This document shows, piece by piece, positions 1 through 31,453 of a stretch of 64,000 bases of DNA (within the stretch, counting starts at the first letter, position 1; the number at the start of each line of letters is the position of its first letter). Both the position numbers and the translations under genes were made by a program. Below the pieces are notes generated by a model. It was not told where the DNA came from and did no database searches. It saw only the letters and a program-made list of their open reading frames with translations. Location: positions 435,922,001 through 435,986,000 of the forward strand of contig OZ024740.1 in NCBI GenBank assembly GCA_964016885.1, read 5' to 3'. Source of the stretch: Eledone cirrhosa. Taxonomy: Eukaryota.

Positions 1-2258
1 AGACTCTGTCTATGTCATTAATCCTTTCATTACCATATTTCTAATAAAAGACACTGTCTATGTCATTAACCCTTTCATTACCATATTTCTAGTAAAAGAC
101 ACTGTCTATGTCATTAACCCTTTCATTACCATATTTCTAGTAAAAGACACTGTCTATGTCATTAACCCTTTCATTACCATATTTCTAGTAAAAGACACTG
201 TCTATGTCATTAAGCCTTTCATTACCATATTTCTAGTAAAAGACACTGTCTATGTCATTAACCCTTTCATTACCATATTTCTAGTAAAAGACACTGTCTA
301 TGTCATTAACCCTTTCATTACAATATTTCTAGTAAAAGACACTGTCTATGTCATTAACCCTTTCATTACCAGATTTCTAGTAAAAGACACTGTCTATGTC
401 ATTAACCCTTTCATTACCATATTTCTAATTAAAGACACTGTCTATGTCATTAACCCTTTCATTACCATATTTCTAGTAAAAGACACTGTCTATGTCATTA
501 ACCCTTTCATTACCATATTTCTAGTAAAAGACACTGTCTATGTCATTAACCCTTTCATTACCATATTTCTAGTAAAAGACACTGTCTATGTCATTAACCC
601 TTTCATTACCATATTTCTAATGAAATACACTGTCTATGTCATTAACCCTTTCATTAACATATTTCTAATGTAGACACTGTCTATATCATTAACCCTTTCA
701 TTACCATATTTCTAATGAAAGACACTGTCTATGTCATTAATCCTTTCATTACCATATTTCTAGTAAAAGACACTGTCTATGTCATTAACCCTTTCATTAC
801 CATATTTCTAATGAAAGACACTGTCTATGTCATTAACCCTTTCATAACCATATTTCTAGTAAAAGACACTGTCTATGTCATTAACCCTTTCATTACCATA
901 TTTCTAATGTAGACACTGTCTATGTCATTAACCCTTTCATTACCATATTTCTAATGAAAGACACTGTCTATGTCATTAATCCTTTCATTACCATATTTCT
1001 AGTAAAAGACACTGTCTATGTAATTAACCCTTTCATTACTATATTTCTAGTAAAAGACACTGTCTATGTCATTAACCCTTTCATTACCATATTTCTAATG
1101 AAAGACACTGTCTATGTCATTAACCCTTTCATAACCATATTTCTAGTAAAAGACACTGTCTATGTCATTAACCCTTTCATTACCATATTTCTAATGTAGA
1201 CACTGTCTATGTCATTAACCCTTTCATTACCATATTTCTAATATAGACACTGTCTATGTCATTAACCCTTTCATTACCATATTTCTAATATAGACACTGT
1301 CTATGTCATTAACCCTTTCATTACCATATTTCTAATGAAAGACACTGTCTATGTCATTAATCCTTTCATTACCATATTTCTAATGAAAGACACTGTCTAT
1401 GTCATAACCCTTTCATTGCCGTATTTCTAGTAAAAGACACTGTCTATGTCATTAACCCTTTCATTACCATATTTCTAATGAAAGACACTGTCTATGTCAT
1501 TAACCCTTTCATTACCATATTTCTAATGAAAGATATTGCCTATGTCATTAACCCTTTCATTACCATATTTCTAATGAAAGACACTGTCTATGTCTTTAAC
1601 CCTTTCATTACTATATTTCTAGTAAAAGACACTGTCTATGTCATTAACCCTTTCATTACCATATTTTTAATGAAAGACACTGTCTATGTCATTAACCCTT
1701 TCATTACCATATTTCTAATGAAAGACACTGTCTATGTCATTAACCTTTTCATTACCATATTTCTAATGAAAGACACTGCCTATGACATTAACCCTTTCAT
1801 TACCATATTTCTAGTAAAATCCACTGTCTATGTCATTAACCCTTTCATTACCATATTTCTAATGAAAGACACTGTCTATGTCATTAACCCTTTCATTACC
1901 ATATTTCTAATGTAGACACTGTCTATGTCATTAACCCTTTCATTACCATATTTCTAATGAAAGACACTATCTATGTCATTCACCCTTTCATTACCATATT
2001 TCTAATGAAAGACACTGTCTATGTCATTAACCCTTTCATTACCATATTTCTAATGAAAGACACTGTCTATGTCATTAACCCTTTCATTACCATATTTCTA
2101 ATGAAACGCACTGTCTATGTCATTAACCCTTTCATTACCATATTTCTAATGAAAGACACTGTCTACGTCATTAACCCTTTCATTACCATATTTCTAATGA
2201 AAGACAGTGTCTATGTCATTAACCCTTTCATTACCATATTTCTAATGAAAGACACTAC
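1..2258. repeat. 48-bp minisatellite (TTAACCCTTTCATTACCATATTTCTA[A/G]T[G/A]AAAGACACTGTCTATGTCA), ~47 copies, runs off the left edge; unit is the left end of a TTAA MITE
   Basis: Direct 48-bp periodicity with occasional 47-bp units (AATGTAGAC); unit start matches the MITE left end at 29832. Confidence 0.97.
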
Positions 2259-2310
2259 CTGTGATATTCAAATCATTTTGAAAATAGGAATTTGAAAGGA
2301 TTTATTAATA
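2219..2310 (+). mobile_element. Left portion of a TTAA-CCCTT MITE, truncated by the LINE 3' end
   Basis: The last satellite unit continues into unique sequence GAATTTGAAAGGATTTATTAA, resembling GAATTTTGAGGGATATACTAA inside the MITE at 29832-30034. Confidence 0.6.
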
Positions 2311-2314
2311 TATG

Positions 2315-5300
2315 TTTCTTTTATTTGCCACCAGGGCATCAAAAGTGGGACAAGTACAATGGGGGGAGTTTACAAAACAAGGCGTTCTCAATAAGGAGGA
2401 AGCAATAACAATATATAAAAATAAAATAAAATATAACAAAAAATAAAATTAATAAGAAAGTCCTCAATAGAGAGGAGGCGCCTTGGGGGGTCGCACACAC
2501 CCCCGAAAAAAGTGTGCAACCCTTCTCCTCAGGAGCACAGAGAAGGGGTGCTCCCTTGGTCTTTCATCTTCCTCACCTATAGTCTGATGTAGAGTGGAGG
2601 CCCATTCACACGGGCCATTCTCGCCACTTTCACCCATCTTTCATAGAAACGGCTGGGGTGCAGCACCTCTCTCTCCATCCTGATCCTTCTTCCGAAATGA
2701 TATCGGAAGAAACGGACCAGTTGTTGGCCAGAGAGAAAGGTGTCTGACCTCAGTCCTTTCAGACGCGTCCACCATACAACCTCTTTCGCCATGACTATTA
2801 CGCACAGAAACACCGCCTCTCCTTCGTTTTTGAAGAGGGGAGGCGGCTTGATCGTTACAATAGACTCGGTGGTAAACCGGATCGGTCCCACCCTTGACAG
2901 CAGTTGTTCGACATAGCCCCACAGATCGTCAATGCCCGAGCAGTGTACCAATGCGTGTGCAACGGTTTCCTCGTCGCACACGCATCTGGGACAGACCTTT
3001 TTCGATGGGTCCCTACCCGGGCGCCCGTGTCTGTAGAGCCTTTCTCGAACGGGCAGAGCCCTTCTGTAGCATTGCCAGGCCAGGGACCTCTGGAAGTTAT
3101 CCATGGGTCCCGGTCTGAATGTCCTACCAAAAAGGTTGGCCAGTTCGTCTTCCTCCATGCCTAGGGCTTCTCCGAGGGCGTCGTCGCACCTGCTAACCAC
3201 CAGCCCTCTATAGAATGACGAGGTGGATTCTCCACTGACAGCCGGGTCCGCCTGCCAGAGAGCCGTGAGCGCCTGGGCACACTCGGTGTGCCAGGCGCCC
3301 AGTTTTCTCGGTCTTTGCTTGACCCAGGATTGCAGCTCGGTGAGTGAGACGAGTCTGGGAAAGGCTCGCCTCACAAACGGGGCCCACACCGGTTGACCGG
3401 AGAGGAATACCTGAAGGTGCCGTAGCCTTAATGCGTGTTTACGTATCATCAGCCACGGCATCCCCAGCCCTCCTTTCGAAGGGTGTTGACAGCAGATGGA
3501 TCTCCTCACCATAGGAGCCCGCTTCTTCCAAAGGAATTGGAAGAGTGCGCGCTCCATTTTGGCGAGCGTTTCCCTTGGGCAAGGCACCACAGTCAGGCGG
3601 TAGTAGATGACGGACGCTATATAAGTGTTCGCCACCTCCCCCCGACCTTTCAGGGACAGTTTGCACTCGGCCCACTTCTGGGTCAGTGCAAACACCCTGC
3701 TCGTCACCTCACCCCAGTTCTTCTCCACCTAGAGGTCTGGTCCGAACCAGACCCCGAGCAATTTCACCGGGCCCTCCGTCCAGCGCCCGACGACGCCATC
3801 GGAGGGCATCGATCTGCCCCTCCACGTGCCGAGTTGCAGACCGATCGACTTGTCCCGGTTCAGCATAGCCCCTGTAAACCTTTCGTACTCCTCCAGTAAG
3901 GTGCCGATCGCCCCGATTTCGGAGGCCGTCGACACCATTACTGTCACGTCATCGGCGTAGGCTGACACCGCTTTCCGCAATCCCGGTTCCAACGGGATGC
4001 CCTGCAACAACTCCAACTTCCGCAGTAGTGGCTCGAGAGTCAACACATACAGAAGGGAGAAGAGAGGGCACCCCTGTCGGATGGACCGCGCGATTTCGAA
4101 CGGCTCCGAGAGGTAGCCGTTCACCTTGACCCTAGAGCAGATGCGGCTGCTGTGCATGGCATTGATCCAGCCCCTGAAAACGGGTCCGAAGCCTGCCGCC
4201 GCTAGCACCGCATCCAGGTAACCATGGTCGACCCTATCGAATGCCTTAGATTGATCCAAGTTGATCAGGGTCCCACCAAAGCCGGGTTCGTTCCCAACCC
4301 TCTCTATGATGTATCGCATGAGGTGGAGGTTATCATGGATGGACCTGGACGGGATAGCACATGTCTGCGCATCTCCCACCAGGTTGCCCACGACAAGCGC
4401 CAACCTCTTTGCTAGCACCTTGGCCAAAATCTGTAACTCTGTATTTAGCAGAGTTATGGGCCTGAAATTATTTATATCGTCCCCCTTGTTCTCGTCCTTC
4501 CTCACTAGCGTGACTACGCCCTTGGTCACAGCACAGGGAATTCTCCCGTTCTGTCGCCAGTTGCAGTAGACCACCTCGAGGAGTTCGGGGAACAAGTCCG
4601 GCATAGCTAGATATAGTTCGTATGGGAGACCATCGAGACCCGGGGATTTGCGTTTGCCGCATTGGCTCAGCACGTCCTCTATCTCAGCGGCTGGAATCGG
4701 CTCCTCGCAGGCTTCGCCTCCCTGTCCGAGAGACGCGGCAGGCCGTCGAGGTATGGACCGAAGTCCACGTCCCCAACCGGCCCCCCGCCCCTTCCGAACA
4801 ATTCGGCAAAGTGATTTTGAAAAGCCTCGCACATCTGCTTAGTTTCAAGGATCACCCGTCCATCCTGGTCTCGCAAAGACCGGATAGTGGATCTGCTCCC
4901 TCTTTTGGCTTCTGTCACGCGGGCCCAGCTAACAGCTTTGGTCCCCTCGTTTCCCAGAGCACGTATTTTGCTTCGGACGATGCAGCCTTCGTGTTTCGCG
5001 TCGAAGAATTGGCCCAGGGCCGTTCTCGACGCTAGCACTCTGGCCACGTCGCCGCTTCTAATTGCCTCTTCTACACTATCTACCAACTCCCTTTCCTTCC
5101 TATTTCTATTGGAGGCTAACTCCTTACTAAATTCTATAGAGACTACTCTAATCTCTCTTTTGAGAGATCCCCACCACCTGCTGTTGACGATGGCGCCCGT
5201 CAACCGCTCCTTAACTAAAGTACTAATCCGGTTCCTGTAAGCCTTACTTGCCGGTAAGGACAAGTTGAGCTTCCAGTAACCGGGTCCCTGTCTATGACTT

Positions 5301-5413
5301 CTGTCAAGGTTGACCATGCAGGTCACTAATTTGTGGTCTGAATAGCCAACCATGCACATTTTTGGACAACTTAAAAAGTCCTTATCCTTAATTCTAACTA
5401 AGAACCTATCTAG
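2315..5413 (-). mobile_element. 5'-truncated non-LTR retrotransposon, L1 superfamily, probably Tx1 clade
   Basis: ORF2 with APE C-terminus, RT and CCHC knuckle; ~260-bp 3' UTR with AATAAA (minus strand, 2325-2320) and a short A-rich end; GC/CpG-rich against an AT-rich background. Confidence 0.93.
2577..5413 (-). pseudogene. Disrupted LINE ORF2 (endonuclease C-terminus, reverse transcriptase, zinc knuckle)
   Basis: Motifs LDRFLV...SDHKLV and GYWKLN (APE end); SPGLDGL, FRPITLLN, LDQSKAFDRVDH, IRQGCPL, YADD (RT); CPRC-x8-H-x4-C. ORFs 4679-5359, 3729-4832 and 2577-3728 join into one by repairing a 1-bp deletion near 4715 and an in-frame TAG at 3731-3729. Confidence 0.93.
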
Positions 5414-5421
5414 GTTCTTAG

Positions 5422-5603
5422 GTGATGTGTTATTTCCTTGAGCAAGACACTTTATTTCACGTTGCTCCAGTTTACTCAGCTGTAGAAATGAGATGATAGG
5501 ACTGGGGTCCCTATCATTAAATCACCAGAGACACCTCCAACGAGATATACATTGGAGGTGGCCAACTAAACCTGCATAGGTGTGAGCTGTAACAACAACA
5601 ACA
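5422..5603 (+). mobile_element. Headless SINE copy (central core plus 3' tail ending in (AAC)n)
   Basis: GTGATGTGTTATTTCCTTGAGCAAGACACTTTATTTCACGTTGCTCCAGTTTACTCAGCTG closely matches the reverse complement of ~33649-33699; tail has two hairpins and ends AACAACAACAAC. Confidence 0.75.
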
Positions 5604-5724
5604 TATATATAGGAAAAGAGTCAGGACGCCGACGACTGAGCTCCAGCTGTTTCGACAGCTAGATCCGAACTATATATATATATATTAAGGGCGAAAACAC
5701 TTCCTTGAGTGAGGGTTTCTTCTA

Positions 5725-8700
5725 TGAAGACCTTCTGCTGTCCAGCTCTCCTCAGAGTTTATCTCTGAAGACCTGCTGTCCAGCTCTCCTCAGAGTTTAT
5801 CTCTGAAGACCTGCTGTCCAGCTCTCCTCAGAGTTTATCTCTGAAGACCTGCTGTCCAGCTCTCCTCAGAGTTTATCTCTGAAGACCTGCTGTCCAGCTC
5901 TCCTCAGAGTTTATCTCTGAAGACCTGCTGTCCAGCTCTCCTCAGAGTTTATCTCTGAAGACCTGCTGTCCAGCTCTCCTCAGAGTTTATCTCTGAAGAC
6001 CTGCTGTCCAGCCCTCCTCAGAGATTATCTCTGAAGGCCTTCTGCTGTCTAGCTCTCGTCAGAGTTTATCTCTGAAGACCTTCTGCTGTCCAGCTCTCCT
6101 CAGAGTTTATCTCTGAAGACCTGCTGTCCAGCTCTCCTCAGACTTTGTCCCTGAAGACCTGCTGTCCAGCTCTCCTCAGAGTTTATCTCTGAAGACCTTC
6201 TGCTGTCCAGCTCTCCTCAGAGTTTATCTCTGAAGACCTGCTGTCCAGCTCTCCTCAGAGTTTATCTCTGAAGACCTGCTGTCCAGCTCTCCTCAGAGTT
6301 TATCTCTTAAGGCCTTCTGCTGTTCAGCTCTCCTCAGAGTTTATCTCTGAAGACCTGCTGTCCAGCTCTCCTCAGAGTTTATCTCTGAAGACCTTCTGTT
6401 GTCCAGCTCTCCTCAGAGTTTGTCTCTGAAGACCTGCTGTCCAGCTCTCGTCAGAGTTTATCTCTGAAGACCTTCTGTTGTGCAGCTCTCCTCAGAGTTT
6501 ATCTCTGAAGACCTGCTGTCCAGCTCTCCTCAGAGTTTATCTCTGAAGACCTGCTGTCCAGCTCTCCTCAGAGTTTATCTCTGAAGACCTGCTGTCCAGC
6601 TCTCCTCAGAGTTTATCTCTGAAGACATGCTGTCCAGCTCTCCTCAGAGTTTATCTCTGAAGACCTTCTGCTGTTCAGCTCTCCTCAGAGTTTATCTCTG
6701 AAGACCTGCTGTCCAGCTATCCTCAGAGTTTATCTCTGAAGATCTGCTGTTCATCTCTCCTCAGAGTTTATCTCTGAAGACCTGCTGTCCAGCTCTCCTC
6801 AGAGTTTATCTCTGAAGACCTTCTGTTGTCCAGCTCTCCTCAGAGTTTATCTCTGAAGAACTGCTGTCCAGCTCTCCTCAGGGTTTATCTCTGAAGACCT
6901 GCTGTCCAGCTTTCCTCAGAGTTTATCTCTGAAGACCTGCTGTCCAGCTCTCCTCAGAGTTTATCTCTGAAGACCTGCTGTCCAGCTCTCCTCAGAGTTT
7001 ATCTCTGAAGGCCTTCTGCTGTCCAGCTCTCCTCACGGTTTATCTCTGAAGACCTGCTGTCCAGCTCTCCTCAGAGTTTATCTCTGAAGACCTGCTATCC
7101 AGCTCTCCTCAGAGTTTATCTCTGAAGGCCTTCTGCTGTCCAGCTCTCCTCAGAGTTTATCTCTGAAGACCTGCTGTCTAGCTCTCCTCAGAGTTTATCT
7201 CTGAAGACCTGCTGTCCAGCTCTTCTCAGAGTTTATCTCTGAAGACATGCTGTCCAGCTCTCCTCAGAGTTTATCTCTGAAGACCTGCTGTCCAGCTCTC
7301 CTCAGAGTTTATCTCTGAAGACCTGCTGTCCATCTCTCCTCAGAGTTTATCTCTGAAGACCTGCTGTCCATCTCTCCTCAGAGTTTATCTCTGAAGACCT
7401 TCTGTTGTCCAGCTCTCCTCAGAGTTTATCTCTGAAGACCTGCTGTCCAGCTCTCCTCAGAGTTTATCTCTGAAGACCTGCTGTCCATCTCTCCTCAGAG
7501 TTTATCTCTGAAGACCTGCTGTCCAGCTCTCCTCAGAGTTTATCTCTGAAGACATGCTGTCCAGCTCTCCTCAGAGTTTATCTCTGAAGACCTTCTGTTG
7601 TCCAGCTCTCCTCAGAGTTTATCTCTGAAGACCTTCTGCTGTCCAGCTCTTTTCAGAGTTTATCTCTGAAGACGTTCTGCTGTCCAGCTCTCCTCAGAGT
7701 TTATCTCTGAAGACCTGCTGTCCATCTCTCCTCAGAGTTTATCTCTGAAGACCTGCTGTCCAGCTCTCCTCAGAGTTTATCTCTGAAGACCTGCTGTCCA
7801 GCTCTCCTCAGAGTATATCTCTGAAGACCTTCTGTTGTCCAGCTCTCCTCAGAGTTTATCTCTGAAGACCTGCTGTCCAGCTCTCCTCAGCGTTTATCTC
7901 TGAAGACCTGCTGTCCAGATCTCCTCAGAGTTTATCTCTGAAGACCTTCTGTTGTCCAGCTCTCCTCAGAGTTTATCTCTGAAGACCTGCTGTCCATCTC
8001 TCCTCAGAGTTTATCTCTGAAGAACTGCTGTCCAGCTCTCCTCAGAGTTTATCGCTGAAGACCTGCTGTCCAGCTCTCCTCAGAGTTTATCTCTGAAGAC
8101 CTTCTGCTGTCCAGCTCTCCTCAGAATTTATCTCTGAAGACCTTCTGCTGTCCAGCTCTCCTCAGAGTTTATCTCTGAAGACCTGCTGTCCAGCTCTCCT
8201 CAGAGTTTATCTCTGAAGACCTGCTGTCCAGCTCTCCTCAGAGTTTATCTCTGAAGACCTGCTGTCCAGCTCTCCTCAGAGTTTATCTCTGAAGACCTGC
8301 TGTCCAGCCCTCCTCAGAGATTATCTCTGAAGACCTGCTGTCTAGCTCTCCTCAGAGTTTATCTCTGAAGACCTGCTGTCCAGCTCTCCTCAGAGTTTAG
8401 CTCTGAAGGCCTTCTGCTGTCCAGCACTCCTCAGAGTTTATCTCTGAAGACCTGCAGTCCAGCTCTCCTCAGAGTTTATCTCTGAAGACCTGCTGTCCAG
8501 CTCTCCTCAGAGTTTATCTCTGAAGACCTTCTGCTGTCCAGCTCTCCTCAGAGTTTATCTCTGAAGACCTGCTGTCCAGCTCTCCTCAGACTTTGTCCCT
8601 GAAGACCTGCTGTCCAGCTCTCCTCAGAGTTTATCTCTGAAGACCTTCTGCTGTCCAGCTCTCCTCAGAGTTTATCTCTGAAGACCTGCTGTCCAGCTCT

Positions 8701-11700
8701 CCTCAGAGTTTATCTCTGAAGACCTGCTGTCCAGCTCTCCTCAGAGTTTATCTCTGAAGACATGCTGTCCAGCTCTCCTCAGAGTTTATCTCTGAAGACC
8801 TTCTGTTGTCCAGCTCTCCTCAGAGTTTATCTCTGAAGACCTGCTGTCCAGCTCTCCTCAGGGTTTATCTCTGAAGACCTGCTGTCCAGCTTTCCTCAGA
8901 GTTTATCTCTGAAGACCTGCTGTCCAGCTCTCCTCAGAGTTTATCTCTGAAGACCTGCTGTCCAGCTCTCCTCAGAGTTTATCTCTGAAGGCCTTCTGCT
9001 GTCCAGCTCTCCTCACGGTTTATCTCTGAAGACCTGCTGTCCAGCTCTCCTCAGAGTTTATCTCTGAAGACCTGCTATCCAGCTCTCCTCAGAGTTTATC
9101 TCTGAAGGCCTTCTGCTGTCCAGCTCTCCTCAGAGTTTATCTCTGAAGACCTGCTGTCTAGCTCTCCTCAGAGTTTATCTCTGAAGACCTGCTGTCCAGC
9201 TCTTCTCAGAGTTTATCTCTGAAGACATGCTGTCCAGCTCTCCTCAGAGTTTATCTCTGAAGACCTGCTGTCCAGCTCTCCTCAGAGTTTATCTCTGAAG
9301 ACCTGCTGTCCAGCTCTCCTCAGAGTTTATCTCTGAAGACCTGCTGTCCATCTCTCCTCAGAGTTTATCTCTGAAGACCTGCTGTCCATCTCTCCTCAGA
9401 GTTTATCTCTGAAGACCTTCTGTTGTCCAGCTCTCCTCAGAGTTTATCTCTGAAGACCTGCTGTCCAGCTCTCCTCAGAGTTTATCTCTGAAGACCTGCT
9501 GTCCATCTCTCCTCAGAGTTTATCTCTGAAGACCTGCTGTCCAGCTCTCCTCAGAGTTTATCTCTGAAGACATGCTGTCCAGCTCTCCTCAGAGTTTATC
9601 TCTGAAGACCTGCTGTCCAGCTCTCCTCAGAGTTTATCTCTGAAGACCTTCTGTTGTCCAGCTCTTTTCAGAGTTTATCTCTGAAGACGTTCTGCTGTCC
9701 AGCTCTCCTCAGAGTTTATCTCTGAAGACCTGCTGTCCATCTCTCCTCAGAGTTTATCTCTGAAGACCTGCTGTCCAGCTCTCCTCAGAGTTTATCTCTG
9801 AAGACCTGCTGTCCAGCTCTCCTCAGAGTATATCTCTGAAGACCTTCTGTTGTCCAGCTCTCCTCAGAGTTTATCTCTGAAGACCTGCTGTCCAGCTCTC
9901 CTCAGCGTTTATCTCTGAAGACCTGCTGTCCAGATCTCCTCAGAGTTTATCTCTGAAGACCTTCTGTTGTCCAGCTCTCCTCAGAGTTTATCTCTGAAGA
10001 CCTGCTGTCCAGCTCTCCTCAGAGTTTATCTCTGAAGAACTGCTGTCCAGCTCTCCTCAGAGTTTATCGCTGAAGACCTGCTGTCCAGCTCTCCTCAGAG
10101 TTTATCTCTGAAGACCTTCTGCTGTCCAGCTCTCCTCAGAATTTATCTCTGAAGACCTTCTGCTGTCCAGCTCTCCTCAGAGTTTATCTCTGAAGACCTG
10201 CTGTCCAGCTCTCCTCAGAGTTTATCTCTGAAGACCTGCTGTCCAGCTCTCCTCAGAGTTTATCTCTGAAGACCTGCTGTCCAGCTCTCCTCAGAGTTTA
10301 TCTCTGAAGACCTGCTGTCCAGCCCTCCTCAGAGATTATCTCTGAAGACCTGCTGTCTAGCTCTCCTCAGAGTTTATCTCTGAAGACCTGCTGTCCAGCT
10401 CTCCTCAGAGTTTATCTCTGAAGGCCTTCTGCTGTCCAGCACTCCTCAGAGTTTATCTCTGAAGACCTGCAGTCCAGCTCTCCTCAGAGTTTATCTCTGA
10501 AGACCTGCTGTCCAGCTCTCCTCAGAGTTTATATCTGAAGACCTTCTGCTGTCCAGCTCTCCTCAGAGTTTATCTCTGAAGACCTGCTGTCCAGCTCTCC
10601 TCAGACTTTGTCCCTGAAGACCTGCTGTCCAGCTCTCCTCAGAGTTTATCTCTGAAGTCCTTCTGCTGTCCAGCTCTCCTCAGAGTTTATCTCTGAAGAC
10701 CTGCTGTCCAGCACTCCTCAGAGTTTATCTCTGAAGACCTGCTGTCCAGCCCTCCTCAGAGTTTATCTCTGAAGACCTTCTGCTGTCCAGCTCTCCTCAG
10801 AGTTTATCTCTGAAGACCTGCTGTCCAGCTCTTCTCAGAGATTATCTCTGAAGACCTGCTGTCTAGCTCTCCTCAGAGTTTATCTCTGAAGACCTGCTGT
10901 CCAGCTCTCCTCAGAGTTTATCTCTTAAGGCCTTCTGCTGTCCAGCACTACTCAGAGTTTATCTCTGAAGACCTGCTGTCCAGCTATCCTCAGAGTTTAT
11001 CTCTGAAGACCTGCTGTCCAGCTCTCCTCAGAGTTTATCTCTGAAGACCTGCTGTCCAGCTCTCCTCAGAGTTTATCTCTGAAGACCTGCTGTCCAGCTC
11101 TCCTCAGAGTTTATCTCTGAAGACCTGCTGTCCAGCTCTTCTCAGAGTTTGTCTCTGAAGACCTGCTGTCCAGCTCTCGTCAGAGTTTATCTCTGAAGAC
11201 CTTCTGTTGTCCAGCTCTCCTCAGAGTTTATCTCTGAAGACCTGCTGTCCAGCTCTCCTCAGAGTTTATCTCTGAAGACCTGCTGTCCAGCTCTCCTCAG
11301 AGTTTATCTCTGAAGGCCTTCTGCTGTCCAGCTCTCTTCAGAGTTTATCTCTGAAGGCCTTCTGCTGTCCAGCTCTCCTCAGAGATTATCTCTGAAGACC
11401 TGCTGTCCAGCTCTCCTCAGAGTTTATCTCTTAAGGCCTTCTGCTGTTCAGCTCTCCTCAGAGTTTATCTCTGAAGACATGCTGTCCAGCTCTCCTCAGA
11501 GTTTATCTCTGAAGACCTTCTGTTGTCCAGCGCTCCTCAGAGTTTGTCTCTGAAGACCTGCTGTCCAGCTCTCGTCAGAGTTTATCTCTGAAGACTTTCT
11601 GTTGTGCAGGTCTCCTCAGAGTTTATCTCTGAAGAGCTACTGTCCAGCTCTTCTCAGAGCTTATCTCTGAAGACCTTCTGTTGTCCAGCTCTCCTCAGAG

Positions 11701-14700
11701 TTTATCTCTGAAGACCTTCTGCTGTCCAGCTCTCCTCAGAGTTTATCTCTGAAGACCTTCTGTTGTCCAGCTCTCCTCAGAGTTTATCTCTGAAGACGTG
11801 CTGTCCAGCTCTCCTCAGAGTTTATCTCTGAAGACCTGCTGTCCAGCTCCCCTCAGAGTTTATCTCTGAAGACCTGCTGTCCAGCTCCCCTCAGAGTTTA
11901 TCTCTGAAGACCTGCTGTTCTTCACTCCTCAGAGTTTATCTCTGAAGACATTCTGCTGTCCAGCTCTCAGAGTTTATCTCTGAAGACCTTCTGTTGTCCA
12001 GCTCTCCTCAGAGTTTATCTCTGAAGACGTGCTGTCCAGCTCTCCTCAGAGTTTATCTCTGAAGACCTTCTGCTGTCCAGCTCCCCTCAGAGTTTATCTC
12101 TGAAGACGTGCTGTCCAGCTCTCCTCAGAGTTTATCTCTGAAGACCTGCTGTCCAGCTCTCCTCAGAGTTTATCTCTGAAGACCTGCTGTCCAGCTCTCC
12201 TCAGAGTTTATCTCTGAAGACCTTCTGCTGTCCAGCTCCCCTCAGAGTTTATCTCTGAAGACCTGCTGTCCAGCTCTCCTCAGAGTTTATCTCTGAAAAC
12301 CTTCTGCTGTCCAGCTCTCCTCAGAGTTTATGTCTGAAGACCTGCTGTCCAGCTCTCCTAAGAGTTTATCTCTGAAGACCTGCTGTCCAGCTCTCCTCAG
12401 AGTTTATCTCTCAAGACCTGCTGTCCAGCTCTCCTCAGCGTTTATCTCTGAAGACCTTCTGCTGTCCAGCTCTCCTCAGAGTTTATCTCTGAAGACCTGC
12501 TGTCCAGCTCTCCTCAGAGTTTATCTCTGAAGACCTGCTGTCCAGCTCTCCTCAGAGTTTATCTCTGAAGGCCTGCTGTCCAGCTCTCCTCAGAGTTTAT
12601 CTCTGAAGAGCTGCTGTCCAGCTCTCCTCAGAGTTTATCTCTGAAGACCTTCTGCTGTCCAGCTCTCAGAGTTTATCTCTGAAGACCTGCTGCCCAGCAC
12701 TCCTCAGAGTTTATCTCTGAAGACCTGCTGTCCAGCTCTCCTCAGAGTTTATCTCTGAAGACCTGCTGTCCAGCTCTCCTCAGAGTTTATCTCTGAAGGC
12801 CTTCTGCTGTCCAGCTCTCTTCAGAGTTTATCTCTGAAGGCCTTCTGCTGTCCAGCTCTCCTCAGAGATTATCTCTGAAGACCTGCTGTCCAGCTCTCCT
12901 CAGAGTTTATCTCTTAAGGCCTTCTGCTGTTCAGCTCTCCTCAGAGTTTATCTCTGAAGACATGCTGTCCAGCTCTCCTCAGAGTTTATCTCTGAAGACC
13001 TTCTGTTGTCCAGCGCTCCTCAGAGTTTGTCTCTGAAGACCTGCTGTCCAGCTCTCGTCAGAGTTTATCTCTGAAGACTTTCTGCTGTCCAGCTCTCCTC
13101 AGAGTTTATCTCTGAAGACCTTCTGCTGTCCAGCTCTCCTCAGAGTTTATCTCTGAAGACCTTCTGCTGTCCAGCTCTCCTCAGAGTTTATCTGTGAAGA
13201 CCTGCTGTCCAGCACTCCTCAGAGTTTATCTCTGAAGACCTGCTGTCCATCTCTCCTCAGAGTTTATCTCTGAAGACCTGCTGTCCAGCTCTCCTCAGAG
13301 TTTATCTCTGAAGGCCTGCTGTCCAGCTCTCCTCAGAGTTTATCTCTGAAGAGCTGCTGTCCAGCTCTCCTCAGAGTTTATCTCTGAAGACCTTCTGCTG
13401 TCCAGCTCTCAGAGTTTATCTCTGAAGACCTGCTGCCCAGCACTCCTCAGAGTTTATCTCTGAAGACCTGCTGTCCAGCTCTCCTCAGAGTTTATCTCTG
13501 AAGACCTGCTGTCCAGCTCTCCTCAGAGTTTATCTCTGAAGGCCTTCTGCTGTCCAGCTCTCCTCAGAGTTTATCTCTGAAGACCTTCTGCTGTCCAGCT
13601 CTCCTCAGAGTTTATCTCTGAAGACCTTCTGCTGTCCAGCTCTCCTCAGAGTTTATCTGTGAAGACCTGCTGTCCAGCACTCCTCAGAGTTTATCTCTGA
13701 AGACCTGCTGTCCAGCTCTCCTCAGAGTTTATCTCTGAAGACCTGCTGTCCAGCTCTCCTCAGAGTTTATCTCTGAAGACCTGCTGTCCAGCTCTTCTCA
13801 GAGTTTATCTCTGAAGACCTGCTGTCCAGCTCTCGTCAGAGTTTATTTCTGAAGACCTTCTGTTGTCTAGCTCTCCTCAGAGTTTATCTCTGAAGACCTG
13901 CTGTCCAGCTCTCCTCAGAGTTTATCTCTGAAGACCTGCTCTCCAGCTCTTCTCAGAGTTTGTCTCTGAAGACCTGCTGTCCAGCTCTCGTCAGAGTTTA
14001 TCTCTGAAGACCTTCTGTTGTCCAGCTCTCCTCAGAGTTTATCTCTGAAGACCTGCTGTCCAGCTCTCCTCAGAGTTTATCTCTGAAGACCTGCTGTCCA
14101 GCTCTCCTCAGAGTTTATCTCTGAAGGCCTTCTGCTGTCCAGCTCTCCTCAGAGTTTATCTCTGAAGGCCTTCTGCTGTCCGGCTCTCCTCAGAGTTTAT
14201 CTCTGAAGGCCTTCTGCTGTCCAGCTCTCCTCAGAGATTATCTCTGAAGACCTGCTGTCCAGCTCTCCTCAGAGTTTATCTCTGAAGGCCTTCTGCTGTC
14301 CAGCTCTCCTCAGAGTTTATCTCTTAAGGCCTTCTGCTGTTCAGCTCTCCTCAGAGTTTATCTCTGAAGACATGCTGTCCAGCTCTCCTCAGAGTTTATC
14401 TCTGAAGACCTTCTGTTGTCCAGCGCTCCTCAGAGTTTGTCTCTGAAGACCTGCTGTCCAGCTCTCGTCAGAGTTTATCTCTGAAGACCTTCTGTTGTGC
14501 AGCTCTCCTCAGAGTTTATCTCTGAAGAGCTGCTGTCCAGCTCTTCTCAGAGTTTATCTCTGAAGACCTTCTGTTGTCCAGATCTCCTCAGAGTTTATCT
14601 CTGAAGACCTTCTGCTGTCCAGCTCTCCTCAGAGTTTATCTCTGAAGACCTTCTGTTGTCCAGCTCTCCTCAGAGTTTATCTCTGAAGACGTGCTGTCCA

Positions 14701-17700: not shown

Positions 17701-20700
17701 ACCTGCTGCCCAGCACTCCTCAGAGTTTATCTCTGAAGACCTGCTGTCCAGCTCTCCTCAGAGTTTATCTCTGAAGACCTGCTGTCCAGCTCTCCTCAGA
17801 GTTTATCTCTGAAGGCCTTTTGCTGTCCAGCTCTCCTCAGAGTTTATCTCTGAAGACCTTCTGCTGTCCAGCTCTCCTCAGAGTTTATCTCTGAAGACCT
17901 TCTGCTGTCCAGCTCTCCTCAGAGTTTATCTGTGAAGACCTGCTGTCCAGCACTCCTCAGAGTTTATCTCTGAAGACCTGCTGTCCATCTCTCCTCAGAG
18001 TTTATCTCTGAAGACCTTCTGTTGTCCAACTCTCCTCAGAGTTTATCTCTGAAGACCTGCTGTCCAGCTCTACTCAGAGTTTATCTCTGAAGACCTGCTG
18101 TCCAGCTCTCCTCAGAGTTTATCTCTGAAGACCTGCTGTCCAGCTCTCCTCAGAGTTTATCTCTGAAGACCTGCTGTCCAGCTCTCCTCAGAGTTTATCT
18201 CTGAAGACCTGCTGTCCAGCTCTTCTCAGAGTTTATCTCTGAAGACCTGCTGTCCAGCTCTCGTCAGAGTTTATTTCTGAAGACCTTCTGTTGTCTAGCT
18301 CTCCTCAGAGTTTATCTCTGAAGACCTGCTGTCCAGCTCTCCTCAGAGTTTATCTCTGAAGACCTGCTCTCCAGCTCTTCTCAGAGTTTGTCTCTGAAGA
18401 CCTGCTGTCCAGCTCTCGTCAGAGTTTATCTCTGAAGACCTTCTGTTGTCCAGCTCTCCTCAGAGTTTATCTCTGAAGACCTGCTGTCCAGCTCTCCTCA
18501 GAGTTTATCTCTGAAGACCTGCTGTCCAGCTCTCCTCAGAGTTTATCTCTGAAGGCCTTCTGCTGTCCAGCTCTCCTCAGAGTTTATCTCTGAAGGCCTT
18601 CTGCTGTCCGGCTCTCCTCAGAGTTTATCTCTGAAGGCCTTCTGCTGTCCAGCTCTCCTCAGAGATTATCTCTGAAGACCTGCTGTCCAGCTCTCCTCAG
18701 AGTTTATCTCTGAAGGCCTTCTGCTGTCCAGCTCTCCTCAGAGTTCATCTCTTAAGGCCTTCTGCTGTTCAGCTCTCCTCAGAGTTTATCTCTGAAGACA
18801 TGCTGTCCAGCTCTCCTCAGAGTTTATCTCTGAAGACCTTCTGTTGTCCAGCGCTCCTCAGAGTTTGTCTCTGAAGACCTGCTGTCCAGCTCTCGTCAGA
18901 GTTTATCTCTGAAGACCTTCTGTTGTGCAGCTCTCCTCAGAGTTTATCTCTGAAGAGCTGCTGTCCAGCTCTTCTCAGAGTTTATCTCTGAAGACCTTCT
19001 GTTGTCCAGATCTCCTCAGAGTTTATCTCTGAAGACCTTCTGCTGTCCAGCTCTCCTCAGAGTTTATCTCTGAAGACCTTCTGTTGTCCAGCTCTCCTCA
19101 GAGTTTATCTCTGAAGACGTGCTGTCCAGCTCTCCTCAGAGTTTATCTCTGAAGACCTGCTGTCCAGCTCTCCTCAGAGTTTATCTCTGAAGACCTTCTG
19201 CTGTCCAGCTCCCCTCAGAGTTTATCTCTGAAGACCTGCTGTCCAGCTCCCCTCAGAGTTTATCTCTGAAGACCTGCTGTCCTTCACTCCTCAGAGTTTA
19301 TCTCTGAAGACATTCTGCTGTCCAGCTCTCAGAGTTTATCTCTGAAGACCTTCTGTTGTCCAGCTCTCCTCAGAGTTTATCTCTGAAGACGTGCTGTCCA
19401 GCTCTCCTCAGAGTTTATCTCTGAAGACCTGCTGTCCAGCTCTCCTCAGAGTTTATCTCTGAAGACCTGCTGTCCAGCTCTCCTCAGAGTTTATCTCTGA
19501 AGACCTTCTGCTGTCCAGCTCTCCTCAGAGTTTATGTCTGAAGACCTGCTGTCCAGCTCGCCTAAGAGTTTATCTCTGAAAACCTTCTGCTGTCCAGCTC
19601 TCCTCAGAGTTTATCTCTGAAGACCTGCTGTCCAGCTCTCCTCAGAGTTTATCTCTGAAAACCTTCTGTTGTCCAGCTCTCCTCAGAGTTTATGTCTGAA
19701 GACCTGCTGTCCAGCTCTCCTAAGAGTTTATCTCTGAAGACCTGCTGTCCAGCTCTCCTCAGAGTTTATCTCTCAAGACCTGCTGTCCAGCTCTCCTCAG
19801 CGTTTATCTCTGAAGACCTTCTGCTGTCCAGCTCTCCTCAGAGTTTATCTCTGAAGACCTGCTGTCCAGCTCTCCTCAGAGATTATCTCTGAAGACCTGC
19901 TGTCCAGCTCTCCTCAGAGTTTATCTCTGAAGGCCTGCTGTCCAGCTCTCCTCAGAGTTTATCTCTGAAGAGCTGCTGTCCAGCTCTCCTCAGAGTTTAT
20001 CTCTGAAGACCTTCTGCTGTCCAGCTCTCAGAGTTTATCTCTGAAGACCTGCTGTCCATCTCTCCTCAGAGTTTATATCTGAAGACCTGCTGTCCATCTC
20101 TCCTCAGAGTTTATCTCTGAAGACCTGCTGTCCAGCACTCCTCAGAGTTTATCTCTGAAGACCTGCTGCCCAGCACTCCTCAGAGTTTATCTCTGAAGAC
20201 CTGCTGTCCAGCTCTCCTCAGAGTTTATCTCTGAAGACCTGCTGTCCAGCTCTCCTCAGAGTTTATCTCTGAAGGCCTTCTGCTGTCCAGCTCTCCTCAG
20301 AGTTTATCTCTGAAGACCTTCTGCTGTCCAGCTCTCCTCAGAGTTTATCTCTGAAGACCTTCTGCTGTCCAGCTCTCCTCAGAGTTTATCTGTGAAGACC
20401 TGCTGTCCAGCACTCCTCAGAGTTTATCTCTGAAGACCTGCTGTCCATCTCTCCTCAGAGTTTATCTCTGAAGACCTTCTGTTGTCCAACTCTCCTCAGA
20501 GTTTATCTCTGAAGACCTGCTGTCCAGCTCTACTCAGAGTTTATCTCTGAAGACCTGCTGTCCATCTCTCCTCAGAGTTTATCTCTGAAGACCTGCTGTC
20601 CAGCTCTCCTCAGAGTTTATCTCTGAAGACCTGCTGTCCAGCTCTCCTCAGAGTTTATCTCTGAAGACCTGCTGTCCAGCTCTCCTCAGAGTTTATCTCT

Positions 20701-23700
20701 GAAGACCTGCTGTCCAGCCCTCCTCAGAGTTTATCTCTGAAGGCCTTCTGCTGTCCAGCTCTCCTCACGGTTTATCTCTGAAGACCTGCTGTCCAGCTCT
20801 CCTCAGAGTTTATCTCTGAAGACCTGCTATCCAGCTCTCCTCAGAGTTTATCTCTGAAGGCCATCTGCTGTCCAGCTCTCCTCAGAGTTTATCTCTGAAG
20901 ACCTGCTGTCTAGCTCTCCTCAGAGTTTATCTCTGAAGACCTGCTGTCCAGCTCTTCTCAGAGTTTATCTCTGAAGACATGCTGTCCAGCTCTCCTCAGA
21001 GTTTGTCTCTGAAGACCTGCTGTCCAGCTCTCCTCAGAGTTTATCTCTGAAGACCTGCTGTCCAGCTCTCAGAGTTTATCTCTGAAGACCTGCTGTCCAG
21101 CTCTCCTCAGAGTTTATCTCTGAAGACCTTCTGTTGTCCAGCACTCCTCAGAGTTTATCTCTGAAGAGCTGCTGTCCAGCTCTCCTCAGAGTTTATCTCT
21201 GAAGACCTGCAGTCCAGCACTCCTCAGAGTTTATCTCTGAAGACCTGCTGTCCAGCTCTCCTCAGAGTTTATCTCTGAAGACCTGCTGTCCAGCACTCCT
21301 CAGAGTTTATCTCTGAAGACATGCTCTCCACCTCTCCTCAGAGTTTATCTCTGAAGACCTTCTGTTGTCCAGCTCTCCTCATAGTTTATCTCTGAAGAAC
21401 TTCTGCTGTCCAGCTCTTTTCAGAGTTTATCTCTGAAGACCTTCTGCTGTCCAGCTCTCCTCAGAGCTTATCTCTGAAGACCTGCTGTCCAACTCTCCTC
21501 AGAGTTTATCTCTGAAGACCTGCTGTCCAGCTCTCCTCAGAGTTTATCTCTGAAGACCTGCTGTCCATCTCTCCTCAGAGTTTATCTCTGAAGACCTGCT
21601 GTCCAGCTCTCCTCAGAGTTTATCTCTGAAGACCAGCTGTCCAGCACTCCTCAGAGTTTATCTCTGAAGAACAGCTGTCCATCTCTCCTCAGAGTTTATC
21701 TCTGAAGACCTTCTGCTGTCCAGCTCTCCTCAGAATTTATCTCTGAAGACCTGCTGTCCAGCTCTCCTCAAAGTTTATCTCTGAAGACCTGCTGTCCAGC
21801 TCTCCTCAGAGTTTATCTCTGAAGACCTGCTGTCCAGCCCTCCTCAGAGTTTATCTCTGAAGACCTGCTGTCCATCTCTCCTCAGAGTTTATCTCTGAAG
21901 ACCTGTTGTCCAGCACTCCTCAGAGTTTATCTCTGAAGAGCTGCTGTCCAGCTCTCCTCAGAGTTTATCACTGAAGACCTTCTGCTGTCCAGCTCTCAGA
22001 GTTTATCTCTGAAGACCTGCTGTCCAGCTCTCCTCAGAGTTTATCTCTGAAGACCTTCTGTCCAGCTCTCCTCAGAGTTTATCTCTGAATACCTGCTGTC
22101 CAGCTCTCCTCAGAGTTTATCTCTGAAGACCTGCTGTCCAGCTCTCCTCAGAGTTTATCTCTGAAGACCTGCTTTCCAGCACTCCTCAGAGTTTATCTCT
22201 GAAGACCTGCTGCCCAGCTCTCCTCAGAGTTTATCTCTGAAGACCTGCTGTCCAGTTCTCCTCAGAGTTTATCTCTGAAGGCCTTCTGCTGTCCAGCTCT
22301 CCTCAGAGTTTATCTCTGAAGACCTGCTGTCCAGCTCTCCTCAGAGTTTATCTCTGAAGACCTTCTGCTGTCCAGCTCTCCTCAGAGTTTATCTCTGAAG
22401 ACCTTCTGCTGTCCAGCTCTTCTCAGAGTTTATCTCTGAAGACCTGCTGTCCAGCACTCCTCAGAGTTTATCTCTGAAGACCTGCTGTCCATCTCTCCTC
22501 AGAGTTTATCTCTGAAGACCTTCTGTTGTCCAACTCTCCTCAGAGTTTATCTCTGAAGACCTGCTGTCCAGCACTCCTCAGAGTTTATCTCTGAAGACCT
22601 GCTGCCCAGCTCTCCTCAGAGTTTATCTCTGAAGACCTGCTGTCCAGCTCTCCTCAGAGTTTATCTCTGAAGACCTGCTGTCCAGCTCTCCTCAGAGTTT
22701 ATCTCTGAAGGCCTTCTGCTGTCCAGCTCTCCTCACGGTTTATCTCTGAAGACCTGCTGTCCAGCTCTCCTCAGAGTTTATCTCTGAAGACCTGCTATCC
22801 AGCTCTCCTCAGAGTTTATCTCTGAAGGCCATCTGCTGTCCAGCTCTCCTCAGAGTTTATCTCTGAAGACCTGCTGTCTAGCTCTCCTCAGAGTTTATCT
22901 CTGAAGACCTGCTGTCCAGCTCTTCTCAGAGTTTATCTCTGAAGACATGCTGTCCAGCTCTCCTCAGAGTTTGTCTCTGAAGACCTGCTGTCCAGCTCTC
23001 CTCAGAGTTTATCTCTGAAGACCTGCTGTCCAGCTCTCCTCAGAGTTTATCTCTGAAGACCTGCTGTCCAGCTCTCCTAAGAGTTTATCTCTGAAGACCT
23101 GCTGTCCAGCTCTCCTCAGAGTTTATGTCTGAAGACCTTCTGTTGTCCAGCACTCCTCAGAGTTTATCTCTGAAGAGCTGCTGTCCAGCTCTCCTCAGAG
23201 TTTATCTCTGAAGACCTGCAGTCCAGCTCTCCTGAGAGTTTATCTCTGAAGACCTGCTGTCCAGCTCTCCTCAGAGTTTATCTCTGAAGACCTGCTGTCC
23301 AGCTCTCCTCAGAGTTTATCTCTGAAGACATGCTGTCCAGCTCTCCTCAGAGTTTATCTCTGAAGACCTTCTGTTGTCCAGCTCTCCTCATAGTTTATCT
23401 CTGAAGACCTTCTGCTGTCCAGCTCTTTTCAGAGTTTATCTCTGAAGACCTTCTGCTGTCCCGCTCTCCTCAGAGTTTATCTCTGAAGACCTGCTGTCCA
23501 GCTCTCCTCAGAGTTTATCTCTGAAGACCTGCTGTCCAGCTCTCCTCAGAGTTTATCTCTGAAGACCTGCTGTCCATCTCTCCTCAGAGTTTATCTCTGA
23601 AGACCTGCTGTCCAGCTCTCCTCAGAGTTTATCTCTGAAGACCTGCTGTCCAGCTCTCCTCAGAGTTTATCTCTGAAGACCTGCTGTCCAGCACTCCTCA

Positions 23701-23972
23701 GAGTTTATCTCTGAAGACCTGCTGTCCAGCTCTCCTCAGAGTTTATCTCTGAAGACCTGCTGTCCAGCTCTCCTCAGAGTTTATCTCTGAAGACCTGCTG
23801 TCCAGCTCTCCTCAGAGTTTATCTCTGAAGACCTGCTGTCCAGCTCTTCTCAGAGTTTATCTCTGAAAACCTGCTGTCCAGCTCTTCTCCGAGTTTATCT
23901 CTGAAGACCTGCTTCTCCAGCTCTCTTCAGAGTTTATCTCTGAAGACCTGCTGTCTAACTCCCCTGAGAGTT
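5725..23972. repeat. 38-bp satellite (ATCTCTGAAGACCTGCTGTCCAGCTCTCCTCAGAGTTT) with 41-bp and 3-bp-deletion variants, ~470 copies, 18.2 kb
   Basis: Direct periodicity (5761 to 5799); variant units recur at fixed long offsets (1980, 4428 bp). Confidence 0.98.
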
Positions 23973-24269: not shown

Positions 24270-24289
24270 TCTATATATATATTAATTAT

Positions 24290-28830: not shown

Positions 28831-28835
28831 ATACT

Positions 28836-28934: not shown

Positions 28935-29249
28935 CTCTGCTTTTTGTTTGGGGTGTAGCCGTATTCACCACACTTGACCAATTGTGGGTTGGTGAGGATA
29001 TTTAACCATAGTTAACAGACCTTGCACTGCTGGAGTTCCACTTACCCTCCTGACCATACCAGGGTCTGGTGAGAGAGCTGGTTTAGTCACTGACCATGAA
29101 GCCAGTTCTACTGGGTTACATGGTACCAGTAGCAGAGAGAAGCCTGACATGACCATGGACCCTCATACACACACCCTAAATTTCACTCATAAACCGGGAC
29201 TCTAGTGAGCCATGCAGCCATATCTGCACATATATTTGTGAAGATGTAT

Positions 29250-29702
29250 ACCACCATCACCACCATCATCGCCACCATCACCACCATCATCATTACCATC
29301 ACCACCACTACCACCACCACCACTACCACCACCACCACCATCATCACCACCACCATCATCACCACCACCATCACCACCATCATCACCACCACCATCATCA
29401 CCACCACCATCATCATCACCACCACCATCATCATCACCACCATCATCACCACCACCATCATCACCACCATCATCACCACCACCATCATTACCATCACCAC
29501 TACTACCATCACCACCACTACCACCACTACCACTACCACCACCACCACTACCATCACCACCATTACCATCACCACCACTACCATCACTACCATCATCACA
29601 TCACCACCACCACCACCACCATCATCATCACCATCATCACCATCATCACCATCATCACCATCATCACCATCACCACTACCATCACCACTACCATCATCAC
29701 CA
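29250..29702. repeat. Compound trinucleotide microsatellite (CAC/CAT/TAC)n
   Basis: Direct reading. Confidence 0.95.
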
Positions 29703-29747
29703 ATATCTGTTCACTAACATAGGTTAGATTGTTAAAGACCAAATCAG

Positions 29748-29853
29748 AACTCCCCTGTAGCTGCTGTCTGCATGGACCCTAACCCTTTCATCACTGCAAT
29801 AACTCCACTGTAGCTGCTGTCTTCATGGACCCTAACCCTTTCATCACTGCAAT
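29748..29853. repeat. Two-copy 53-bp tandem duplication spanning the MITE left junction
   Basis: AACTCC.CTGTAGCTGCTGTCT.CATGGACCCTAACCCTTTCATCACTGCAAT at 29748 and 29801. Confidence 0.9.
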
Positions 29854-30034
29854 TCACAGGAAATACACTATTTTAATTAATGAAGAATTTTGAGGGATAT
29901 ACTAAAATTATTAACTATTTCATTTCTAAGATAGTAACTGAATGTAAGGTTCTGGTTTGGAAATCTTTAAAATGGATGGTTTTATTTCATAGAACCAGAG
30001 CTGGTTTTGATCAGGTTGGTAACTAAAGGGTTAA
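29832..30034 (+). mobile_element. ~200-bp non-autonomous DNA element (MITE) with piggyBac-like TTAA/CCCTT termini
   Basis: Left end CTAACCCTTTCATCACT and right end TGGTAACTAAAGGGTTAA are inverted repeats; no ORF. Confidence 0.75.
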
Positions 30035-31453
30035 AATGGGTGGTTTTATTTCATAGGCCCAGAGCTGGTTTTGGTCAGGTTGGTAACTAAAGGGTTAAAT
30101 TGAGTTGTTTTATTTCATAGAACCAGAGCTGGTTTTGATCATGTTGGTAACTAAAGGGTTAAAATGGGTGGTTTTATTTCATAGAACCACAGCTGGTTTT
30201 GGTCAGGTTGGTAACTAAAGGGTTAAAATGGGTGGTTTTATTTCATAGGCCCAGAGCTGGTTTTGATCAGGTTGGTAACTAAAGGGTTAAATTGAGTTGT
30301 TTTATTTCATAGAACCAGAGCTGGTTTTGATCATGTTGGTAACTAAAGGGTTAAAATGGGTGGTTTTATTTCATAGAACCACAGCTGGTTTTGGTCAGGT
30401 TGGTAACTAAAGGGTTAAAATGGGTGGTTTTATTTCATAGAACCAGAGCTGGTTTTGGTCAGGTTGGTAACTAAAGGGTTAAAATGGGTGGTTTTATTTC
30501 ATAGAACTAGAACTGGTTTTGGCTGGGTTGGTAACTAAAGGGTTAAAATGGGTGGTTTTATTTCTTAGAACCAGAGCTGGTTTTGATCAGGTTGGTAACT
30601 AAAGGGTTAACATGGGTGGTTTTATTTCATAGAACCAGAGCTGGTTTTGATCAGGTTGGTAACTAAAGGGTTAAAATGGGAGGTTTTATTTCATAGAACC
30701 AGAGCTGGTTTTGGTAATGTTGGTAACTAAAGGGTTAAAATGGGTGATTTTATTTCATAGAACCAGAGTTGGTTTTGATCAGGTGGGTACCTAAAGGGTT
30801 AAAATGGGAGGTTTTATTTCATAGAACCAGAGCTGGTTTTGGTCAGGTTGGTAACTAAAGGGTTAAAATGGGTGGTTTTATTTCATAGAACCAGAGTTGG
30901 TTTTGGTCAGGTTGGTAATTAAAGGCTTAAAATTGGTGGTTTTATTTCATAGAAACAGAGTTGGTTTTGGTCAGGTTGGTAATTAAAGGCTTAAAATTGG
31001 TGGTTTTATTTCATAGAACCAGAGCTGGTTTTGGCTGGGTTGGTAACTAAAGGGTTAAAATGGGTGGTTTTATTTCATAGAACCAGAGCTGGTTTGGGTC
31101 AGGTTGGTAACTAAAGGGTTAAAATGGGTGGTTTTATTTCTTAGAACCGGAGCTGGTTTTGGCTGGGTTGGTAACTAAAGGGTTAAAATGGGTGGTTTTA
31201 TTTCATAGAACCAGAGCTGGTTTTGGTCAGGTTGGTAACTAAAGGGTTAAAATGGGTGGTTTTATTTCATAGAACTAGAACTGGTTTTGGCTGGGTTGGT
31301 AACTAAAGGGTTAAAATGGGTGGTTTTATTTCATAGAACCAGAGTTGGTTTTGGCTGGGTTGGTAACTAAAGGGTTAAAATGGGTGGTTTTATTTCATAG
31401 AACTAGAGCTGGTTTTGGCTGGGTTGGTAACTAAAGGGTTAAAATGGGTGGTT
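29967..31453. repeat. 64-bp minisatellite, ~23 copies; unit is the right end of the MITE
   Basis: AACTAAAGGG at 30021, 30085 and 30149; every unit ends in the terminal repeat ...AAAGGG before TTAA. Confidence 0.96.

What the first reader, a model, noticed from the sequence alone, without database searches (positions are those of the whole stretch)
1..31453. Two separate satellites are the amplified left and right termini of the same TTAA MITE
Seen: the 48-bp unit at 1-2258 begins TTAACCCTTTCATTACCA; the reverse complement of the 64-bp unit end (29967-31453) is TTAACCCTTTAGTTACCA (16/18 identical). A ~200-bp copy with both ends sits at 29832-30034, and its interior resembles the sequence following the last 48-bp unit. 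Known: TTAA followed by CCC is the piggyBac-type terminus. Inference: the ends of this MITE family repeatedly and independently seed tandem arrays, giving ~47 and ~23 head-to-tail terminal repeats that could also act as transposase-binding decoys.
Basis: partly seen in the sequence, partly recalled or inferred. Interest (0 to 1): 0.75.

Follow-up and report, generated by a model that had tools for sequence, protein, structure and literature searches.

The report
piggyBac MITE ends become satellites
Both repeat arrays are multiplied ends of small piggyBac transposons from two sister subfamilies, and similar arrays elsewhere in this genome start at the transposon's own TTAA target sites, so they likely began when one copy jumped into another and then grew locally, a neat variant of a known route from transposon to satellite DNA.

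Summary
A dispersed 240-bp TTAA MITE (subfamily A) exists, and 29832-30034 is a copy whose last 64 bp recur 22 more times. The 48-bp array belongs to a sister subfamily B (77% identical) and has about 370 units, not 47. A decayed autonomous piggyBac with matching ends was found. Genome-wide, 44 A copies carry a tandem of this end against 2 purely interior duplications, and 41 of 44 units run exactly from an internal TTAA to the terminal TTAA. Those internal TTAAs are real insertion targets (61 and 127 nested junctions). Best model (0.6): nested insertion makes terminal dimers, composites move on, arrays expand locally. TE-derived satellites are well known, and this scan already noted the 48-bp family at another locus (e1-10326979). 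The TTAA-to-TTAA rule and the nested intermediates are the added part.

The parts
1..2218 (+). 48-bp satellite: first 45 bases of MITE subfamily B plus 3 bases, each unit opening with TTAA; continues about 15.5 kb upstream of the window (about 370 units)
2219..2312 (+). Remaining body of the subfamily B copy that ends the array; cut off by the LINE
2313..5420 (-). 5'-truncated LINE with RVT_1 and zf-RVT in separate frames (Tx1-like is a recalled label); ends approximate
29748..29853 (+). 53-bp dimer of 31 bases of flank plus the first 22 bases of the subfamily A copy; junction not at TTAA, likely host slippage
29832..30034 (+). Full subfamily A piggyBac MITE copy (203 bp; consensus 240 bp)
30035..31442 (+). 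22 extra 64-bp units, each from just after the internal TTAA at consensus position 173 to the terminal TTAA
31443..31455 (+). Truncated last unit ending in TTAA, then unique flank

Best explanation
Both arrays are amplified ends of non-autonomous piggyBac MITEs (64-bp unit from subfamily A, 48-bp unit from sister subfamily B), and the first dimer was likely made by the transposase: a copy likely inserted in the same direction into a TTAA inside another copy, which doubles the stretch from that TTAA to each end. Shown: unit borders at TTAA, nested insertions at the same TTAAs, one whole nested intermediate, both half products, and composites at several unrelated sites. Inferred: the nested element, with two left and two right ends, lost one doubled part by recombination or moved on using an inner end, so a few founders spread. 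Inferred from established satellite biology: slippage and unequal exchange then expanded and homogenised some dimers in place, helped by a repeat-prone region (90% of this window is tandem repeat). The arrays are likely by-products without a function.
For: Left-end doublings at TTAA 44-52, 114, 158 and 173 also occur. Nested junctions: 61 at TTAA 173 (control 4) and 127 at TTAA 158 (control 0); a third MITE family sits there with TTAA on both sides and the host tail behind it in 28 of 48 and 10 of 26. L380 is a whole direct A-in-A intermediate at TTAA 158. In 14 dimers the two units share 11 changes against 10.8 expected by chance, while longer arrays share 61 against 17.5: seeds as old as the elements, expansion later. 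In 3 of 7 79-bp arrays unit 2 has a rare base (2 of 99 in background) that the body lacks, so it came from another copy; 5 of 9 '172 + whole A' composites share a base seen in 5 of 99 yet have different right flanks. No significant excess of flank A that would lengthen the microhomology (20 of 37 against 35 of 92, p=0.12).
Against: Array classes do not follow insertion counts: 64-bp 39 against 79-bp 7, but nested junctions 61 against 127; this needs a founder effect that I could not show for the 64-bp class (no diagnostic base). 0 of 9 direct A-in-A at TTAA 173 keep the tail. L360, and by eye L121, were copied from themselves. L255 has a 62-bp interior repeat that fits TTAA 52 to TTAA 114 with no terminus. 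The B consensus reads TTCA, not TTAA, at the 48-bp junction. The window's own two arrays cannot be assigned to one mechanism. Only 30 of 127 junctions at TTAA 158 were examined.
Confidence: 0.6

Rival explanations
1. Host slippage or repair between short microhomologies (TTAA, TTAAA) made a few terminal duplications, and ordinary transposition of those founders spread them.
For: Flank-containing and interior duplications exist (3 of 44; 2 interior; the window's 53-bp dimer; L255). The genome is rich in tandem repeats (5.3% of flanks; 90% of the window). Self-copied cases L360 and L121. Class ratios do not follow insertion counts.
Against: Six or more junction classes all sit on TTAA; unit 2 differs from its own body by a rare base in 3 of 7 79-bp arrays; dimers are old; a whole nested intermediate exists (L380).
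Confidence: 0.2
2. Hybrid-end (sister-chromatid) transposition: the transposase pairs ends from two sister copies and joins one to an internal TTAA, giving 'A + tail' or '172 + A' directly, without an intermediate.
For: 0 of 9 direct A-in-A at TTAA 173 keep the tail while 28 of 48 foreign inserts do; self-copied cases fit; alternative transposition makes duplications that end at element termini in maize Ac, and the same paper cites P-element hybrid insertion (PMC3744419, passages).
Against: It predicts identical units at birth, which does not fit the mismatched rare bases; L380 is a plain nested insertion; I found no paper showing it for piggyBac (listings only).
Confidence: 0.15
3. The arrays are kept as transposase-binding decoys that damp piggyBac activity.
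For: Each unit holds a whole terminus; exact unit pairs of the 64/79-bp end number 3269 in the genome.
Against: The 7 full-length partner copies have longest open frames of 119-448 aa against 561 aa in the intact sister family, whose subterminal bases differ; array size varies from 2 to over 25 units; most neighbouring satellites are unrelated to these ends.
Confidence: 0.03

Closest known systems
Double insertion of TEs as substrate for satellite DNA (McGurk and Barbash 2018, PMC5932611; passages read)
   Same: Transposition into a preferred target makes a dimer during active periods; the dimer can later expand. They note that tail-to-internal junctions may come from nested insertions.
   Different: There the unit is mostly a whole or truncated element joined at the target site duplication; here the target is a TTAA inside the element, the unit is only the end (48, 64, 79 bp), and the composite moves again.
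Xmix MITE with Xstir repeat (Xenopus; passages of PMC6004289, PMC12628747 and PMC9659126; original papers not seen)
   Same: A TTAA-targeting MITE carries a tandem array and spreads it.
   Different: Xstir is described as an internal segment of a presumed Kolobok MITE (AGGRR ends), with a stem-loop model; here piggyBac CCC ends and terminal units bounded by TTAA.
miDNA4 (Xenopus tropicalis Tc1/mariner MITE) and Tetris TIR-220 (Drosophila virilis) (review passages and table only)
   Same: MITE or TIR sequence becomes satellite DNA; microhomology is invoked for miDNA4.
   Different: miDNA4 repeats are internal; TIR-220 is listed as from a foldback element's TIR; neither passage ties unit borders to the transposase target.
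Alternative transposition of maize Ac (PMC3744419; passages)
   Same: Transposase-made tandem duplications with one end exactly at an element terminus.
   Different: Duplicates flanking DNA between two nearby elements of the hAT superfamily; no satellite growth shown in the passages read.

Membership tests
piggyBac superfamily, non-autonomous MITE | TTAA target, duplicated on insertion | tested here: met
   67 of 77 copies that reach the left end begin with TTAA (the right TTAA was part of the search). Duplication is shown directly for the related third family inserted into A's single TTAA 173 (28 of 48) and for A in L380; no empty site of the window's own copies was seen.
piggyBac superfamily, non-autonomous MITE | Short terminal inverted repeats opening with CCY (recalled feature) | tested here: met
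   Both ends open CCCTTT; imperfect repeat of about 14 bases.
piggyBac superfamily, non-autonomous MITE | Autonomous element with the same ends and a DDE_Tnp_1_7 transposase | tested here: met
   7 of 30 loci fetched are 2.5-2.6 kb elements whose ends match A at 23 of 27 and 24 of 27 bases and B at 26 of 27; the other piggyBac family matches at 19 and 16 of 27; PF13843 E=5e-80.
piggyBac superfamily, non-autonomous MITE | Catalytic DDD residues and an active partner transposase | not tested
   Residues not checked; all 7 partner copies are broken by stops or frameshifts.
piggyBac superfamily, non-autonomous MITE | Short, non-coding, high copy, dispersed | tested here: met
   240-bp consensus; 335 copies by an exact 28-base pattern; median 93% to consensus in that selected set.
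Kolobok / T2-MITE (Xmix type) | TTAA target with terminal AGGRR or RR | tested here: not met
   Ends are CCC; definition from PMC6004289 passage.
Whole-element TE dimers by double insertion (McGurk and Barbash type) | Unit is a whole element joined head to tail at the target site | tested here: not met
   Units are terminal fragments; whole-element neighbours occur only at L117, L121 and L252.
Tx1-clade LINE (the insert at 2313-5420) | Reverse transcriptase grouping with Tx1 | not tested
   Only Pfam RVT_1 and zf-RVT were shown; no tree.

The most novel reading that the evidence does not exclude
piggyBac MITEs write their own satellite monomers: because the TTAA target occurs inside the element, self-insertion fixes the unit length (distance from an internal TTAA to an end), makes composites that stay mobile, and so seeds dozens of loci with ready-made terminal tandems, some growing to tens of kilobases. 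The monomer lengths of a satellite library could then be predicted from the TTAA map of a MITE.
Probability: 0.5. Interest if true: 0.6.

Novelty: new variant of a known kind. Interest (0 to 1): 0.42.

Why it matters
How a dispersed transposon gives the first tandem dimer is the least observed step of satellite birth. Here the stages lie side by side in one genome: nested junctions, a whole intermediate, half products, dimers, and arrays up to about 370 units. The rule is testable by count and by a simple assay. It also helps explain how introns in this 3-Gb genome swell. It does not point to a new function.

Tried and rejected
Same subfamily for both arrays: rejected. The 10 non-A bases of the 48-bp unit as host flank: rejected, they are mostly subfamily B. 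An uninterrupted B variant with TTAA at 49: searched (396 matches); the 16 places read of those listed were mutated array units or ambiguous, so none was shown. Diagnostic bases for one 64-bp founder: none significant after many tests. A resident left part upstream of right-end arrays: no clear nested case among 49. Longer microhomology at the flank: not significant. Enrichment over flanking DNA: not found. The 17-fold end-over-interior figure uses assumed denominators in the ratio 8:6 from 20 copies and is only a guide. One search mislabelled native TTAA 173 as a terminus; one search replaces those counts, and its rule missed the degenerate tail of L380. The script stopped at its last locus; its later parts were rerun. 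Crypton or Kolobok origin: dropped once the piggyBac partner was found. A paper on MITE self-insertion in rice and maize (recalled) is not held. Searches listed no title or abstract start describing terminal satellites bounded by an internal target site; most subscription papers are not searched, so this does not show absence from print.

Full report
Setting. The window is G000:C1:435922001-435986000 of a 3.0-Gb animal genome. About 90% of it is tandem repeat. A RabGAP-TBC exon lies at 33921-34142; a likely upstream exon lies just before the 48-bp array (read by eye), so the region is likely one long intron. That the animal is an octopus is a recalled impression shared by earlier AI notes and was not tested.

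Observation. Both arrays and the 16-of-18 match are there. The element at 29832-30034 is one copy of a dispersed family: 67 matches with unrelated flanks, 335 copies by an exact two-motif pattern. From the first 100 places of that list (99 loci) the consensus is 240 bp, with TTAA at 1, 44, 48, 52, 86, 114, 153, 158, 173 and 237. I call it subfamily A. The 64-bp unit is A from TTAA 173 to TTAA 237. The 48-bp array ends in a different element: a search with 2219-2320 brought other loci, subfamily B, 77% identical to A. The unit matches B at 44 of its first 45 bases. The array begins about 15.5 kb upstream at a clean TTAA and has about 370 units. The B body is cut at about 2312 by a 5'-truncated LINE.

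Family. A search for PF13843 gave 125 matches. Among 30 loci, 7 are 2.5-2.6 kb elements whose ends match the MITE ends at 23-26 of 27 bases; they are 90-96% alike and all broken. A second piggyBac family has intact 561-aa frames and copies 97-99.9% alike; its ends match a third MITE family, not A or B. A and B are therefore non-autonomous piggyBacs of a lineage that is likely dead.

Do ends seed arrays? Three patterns of equal design (anchor plus a doubled 11-mer) gave 44 distinct loci for the 64-bp end, 7 for the other end and 5 for an interior motif. Three of those 5 are left-end doublings at TTAA 114, leaving 2. The three motifs were about equally conserved in 20 copies (8, 5, 6). 35 of the 44 meet the stricter pattern, about 10% of 335. 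Sizes: 14 dimers, 16 of 3-5 ends, 14 of 6 or more. Against flanking DNA there is no excess: 4 of 98 right ends, 0 left ends and 1 interior point lie in a tandem repeat, against 5.3% of flank bases. So one end beats the interior, but not the genome around it.

Where do units begin? 41 of 44 begin right after TTAA 173 (37) or TTAA 158 (4) and end at the terminal TTAA; 3 include flank. Other TTAA classes were seen: right 123 bp (L360), left 41-49, 113, 157 and 172 bp. All 7 B-type left arrays found without selecting on the junction (window, L126, L127, L146, L159, L242, L244) have the same 48-bp junction; the six whose start was read have different flanks, and two precede an A body. One search, which did select on the junction, listed such arrays on at least 10 chromosomes. 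B's consensus has TTCA there, so the body cannot have made the unit in place; one founder likely spread.

Mechanism. If a copy inserts in the same direction into TTAA p of another copy, the result has p-1 bases doubled on the left and 237-p on the right. The predicted junctions exist: 61 at TTAA 173 (control 4) and 127 at TTAA 158 (control 0). Of the 61, 48 hold the third family (28 with TTAA on both sides and the A tail behind), 10 direct A (9 with a direct host), 2 inverted A-like, 1 other. Of 30 examined at 158, 26 hold the third family (10 with tail), 2 direct A, 1 B, 1 inverted. L380 is whole: A 20-161, a full A-like copy, then A from 162. None of the 9 direct cases at 173 keeps the tail; 5 of them share a base seen in 5 of 99 background copies yet have different right flanks, which points to a composite that moved using its inner end. 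In the 79-bp class, unit 2 carries a base seen in 2 of 99 copies in 5 of 7 arrays, and in 3 the body lacks it. In 14 dimers the units share changes at chance level (11 against 10.8); in 31 longer arrays they share 61 against 17.5. Seeds are thus old, and growth came later, locus by locus.

What does not fit. Insertions favour TTAA 158, arrays TTAA 173. No founder mark was found for the 64-bp class. L360 and L121 look self-copied, and L255 has an interior repeat without a terminus. The window's A copy also has a flank-containing 53-bp dimer at its other end. Host slippage and sister-chromatid transposition likely add cases. The window's own arrays cannot be assigned singly.

Decoys. The units hold whole termini and 3269 exact unit pairs exist, but the matching transposase copies are broken and nothing suggests selection. 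I give it 0.03.

Comparison. Passages of PMC5932611 describe TE dimers by double insertion and note that nested insertion can give tail-to-internal junctions. Passages of two reviews (PMC9659126; PMC12628747) list MITE- and TIR-derived satellites and their models; PMC6004289 passages define Xmix/Xstir; PMC3744419 passages show transposase-made duplications. PMC3952818 (piggyBac autointegration) was seen only in a search listing. No supplements were read. Earlier unreviewed notes of this scan report the 48-bp family at another locus and interior satellites in related MITEs. Verdict: a real and well-preserved example, a new variant of a known kind, interest 0.42.

Noticed in passing
L311-L316, L322, L326 (e.g. 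G000:C1:430503680-430504732): A piggyBac family with 561-aa open frames and copies 97-99.9% identical, so likely recently active; its ends match the third MITE family.
   Followed up: partly
L245-L274, L340-L370, L378-L407: The third MITE family inserts into subfamily A's internal TTAAs in both orientations, so A is older and serves as a landing site.
   Followed up: partly
window 2313-5420: A 5'-truncated LINE cuts the B copy; its far end joins a common SINE-like piece (55 fetched loci match 5400-5800), and the rest of B is missing. Whether it targets the MITE was not tested.
   Followed up: partly
window 5735-23972 and L131: The 38-bp satellite's unit and lead-in also occur just after the B copy at L131 (G000:C6:2.23 Mb), the best match to the window's B body; a shared origin of the two regions is possible.
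   Followed up: partly
window 34408-64000 and L377: The 40-bp satellite runs at least 10 kb past the window; the stretch before it (34220-34400) looks like a DNA-transposon end (recalled hAT-like motif, untested).
   Followed up: no
L376 (G000:C17:14.15 Mb): A 52-bp satellite that keeps half of the 48-bp unit and the B body but has replaced the terminal part.
   Followed up: no
L017, L028, L265: 72-73-bp arrays from inside the third MITE family, showing that interiors of a related MITE also amplify.
   Followed up: no
G000:C6:1.4-8 Mb and C14: Right-end tandems cluster: 10 of 44 loci on the first 8 Mb of C6 and 7 on C14.
   Followed up: no
L270, L342: Two inverted nested copies both lack about 10 bases of the inner terminus.
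   Followed up: no
window 33921-34142: RabGAP-TBC exon (EVI5-like is a recalled name); the intron before it would be about 49 kb, mostly satellite.
   Followed up: partly
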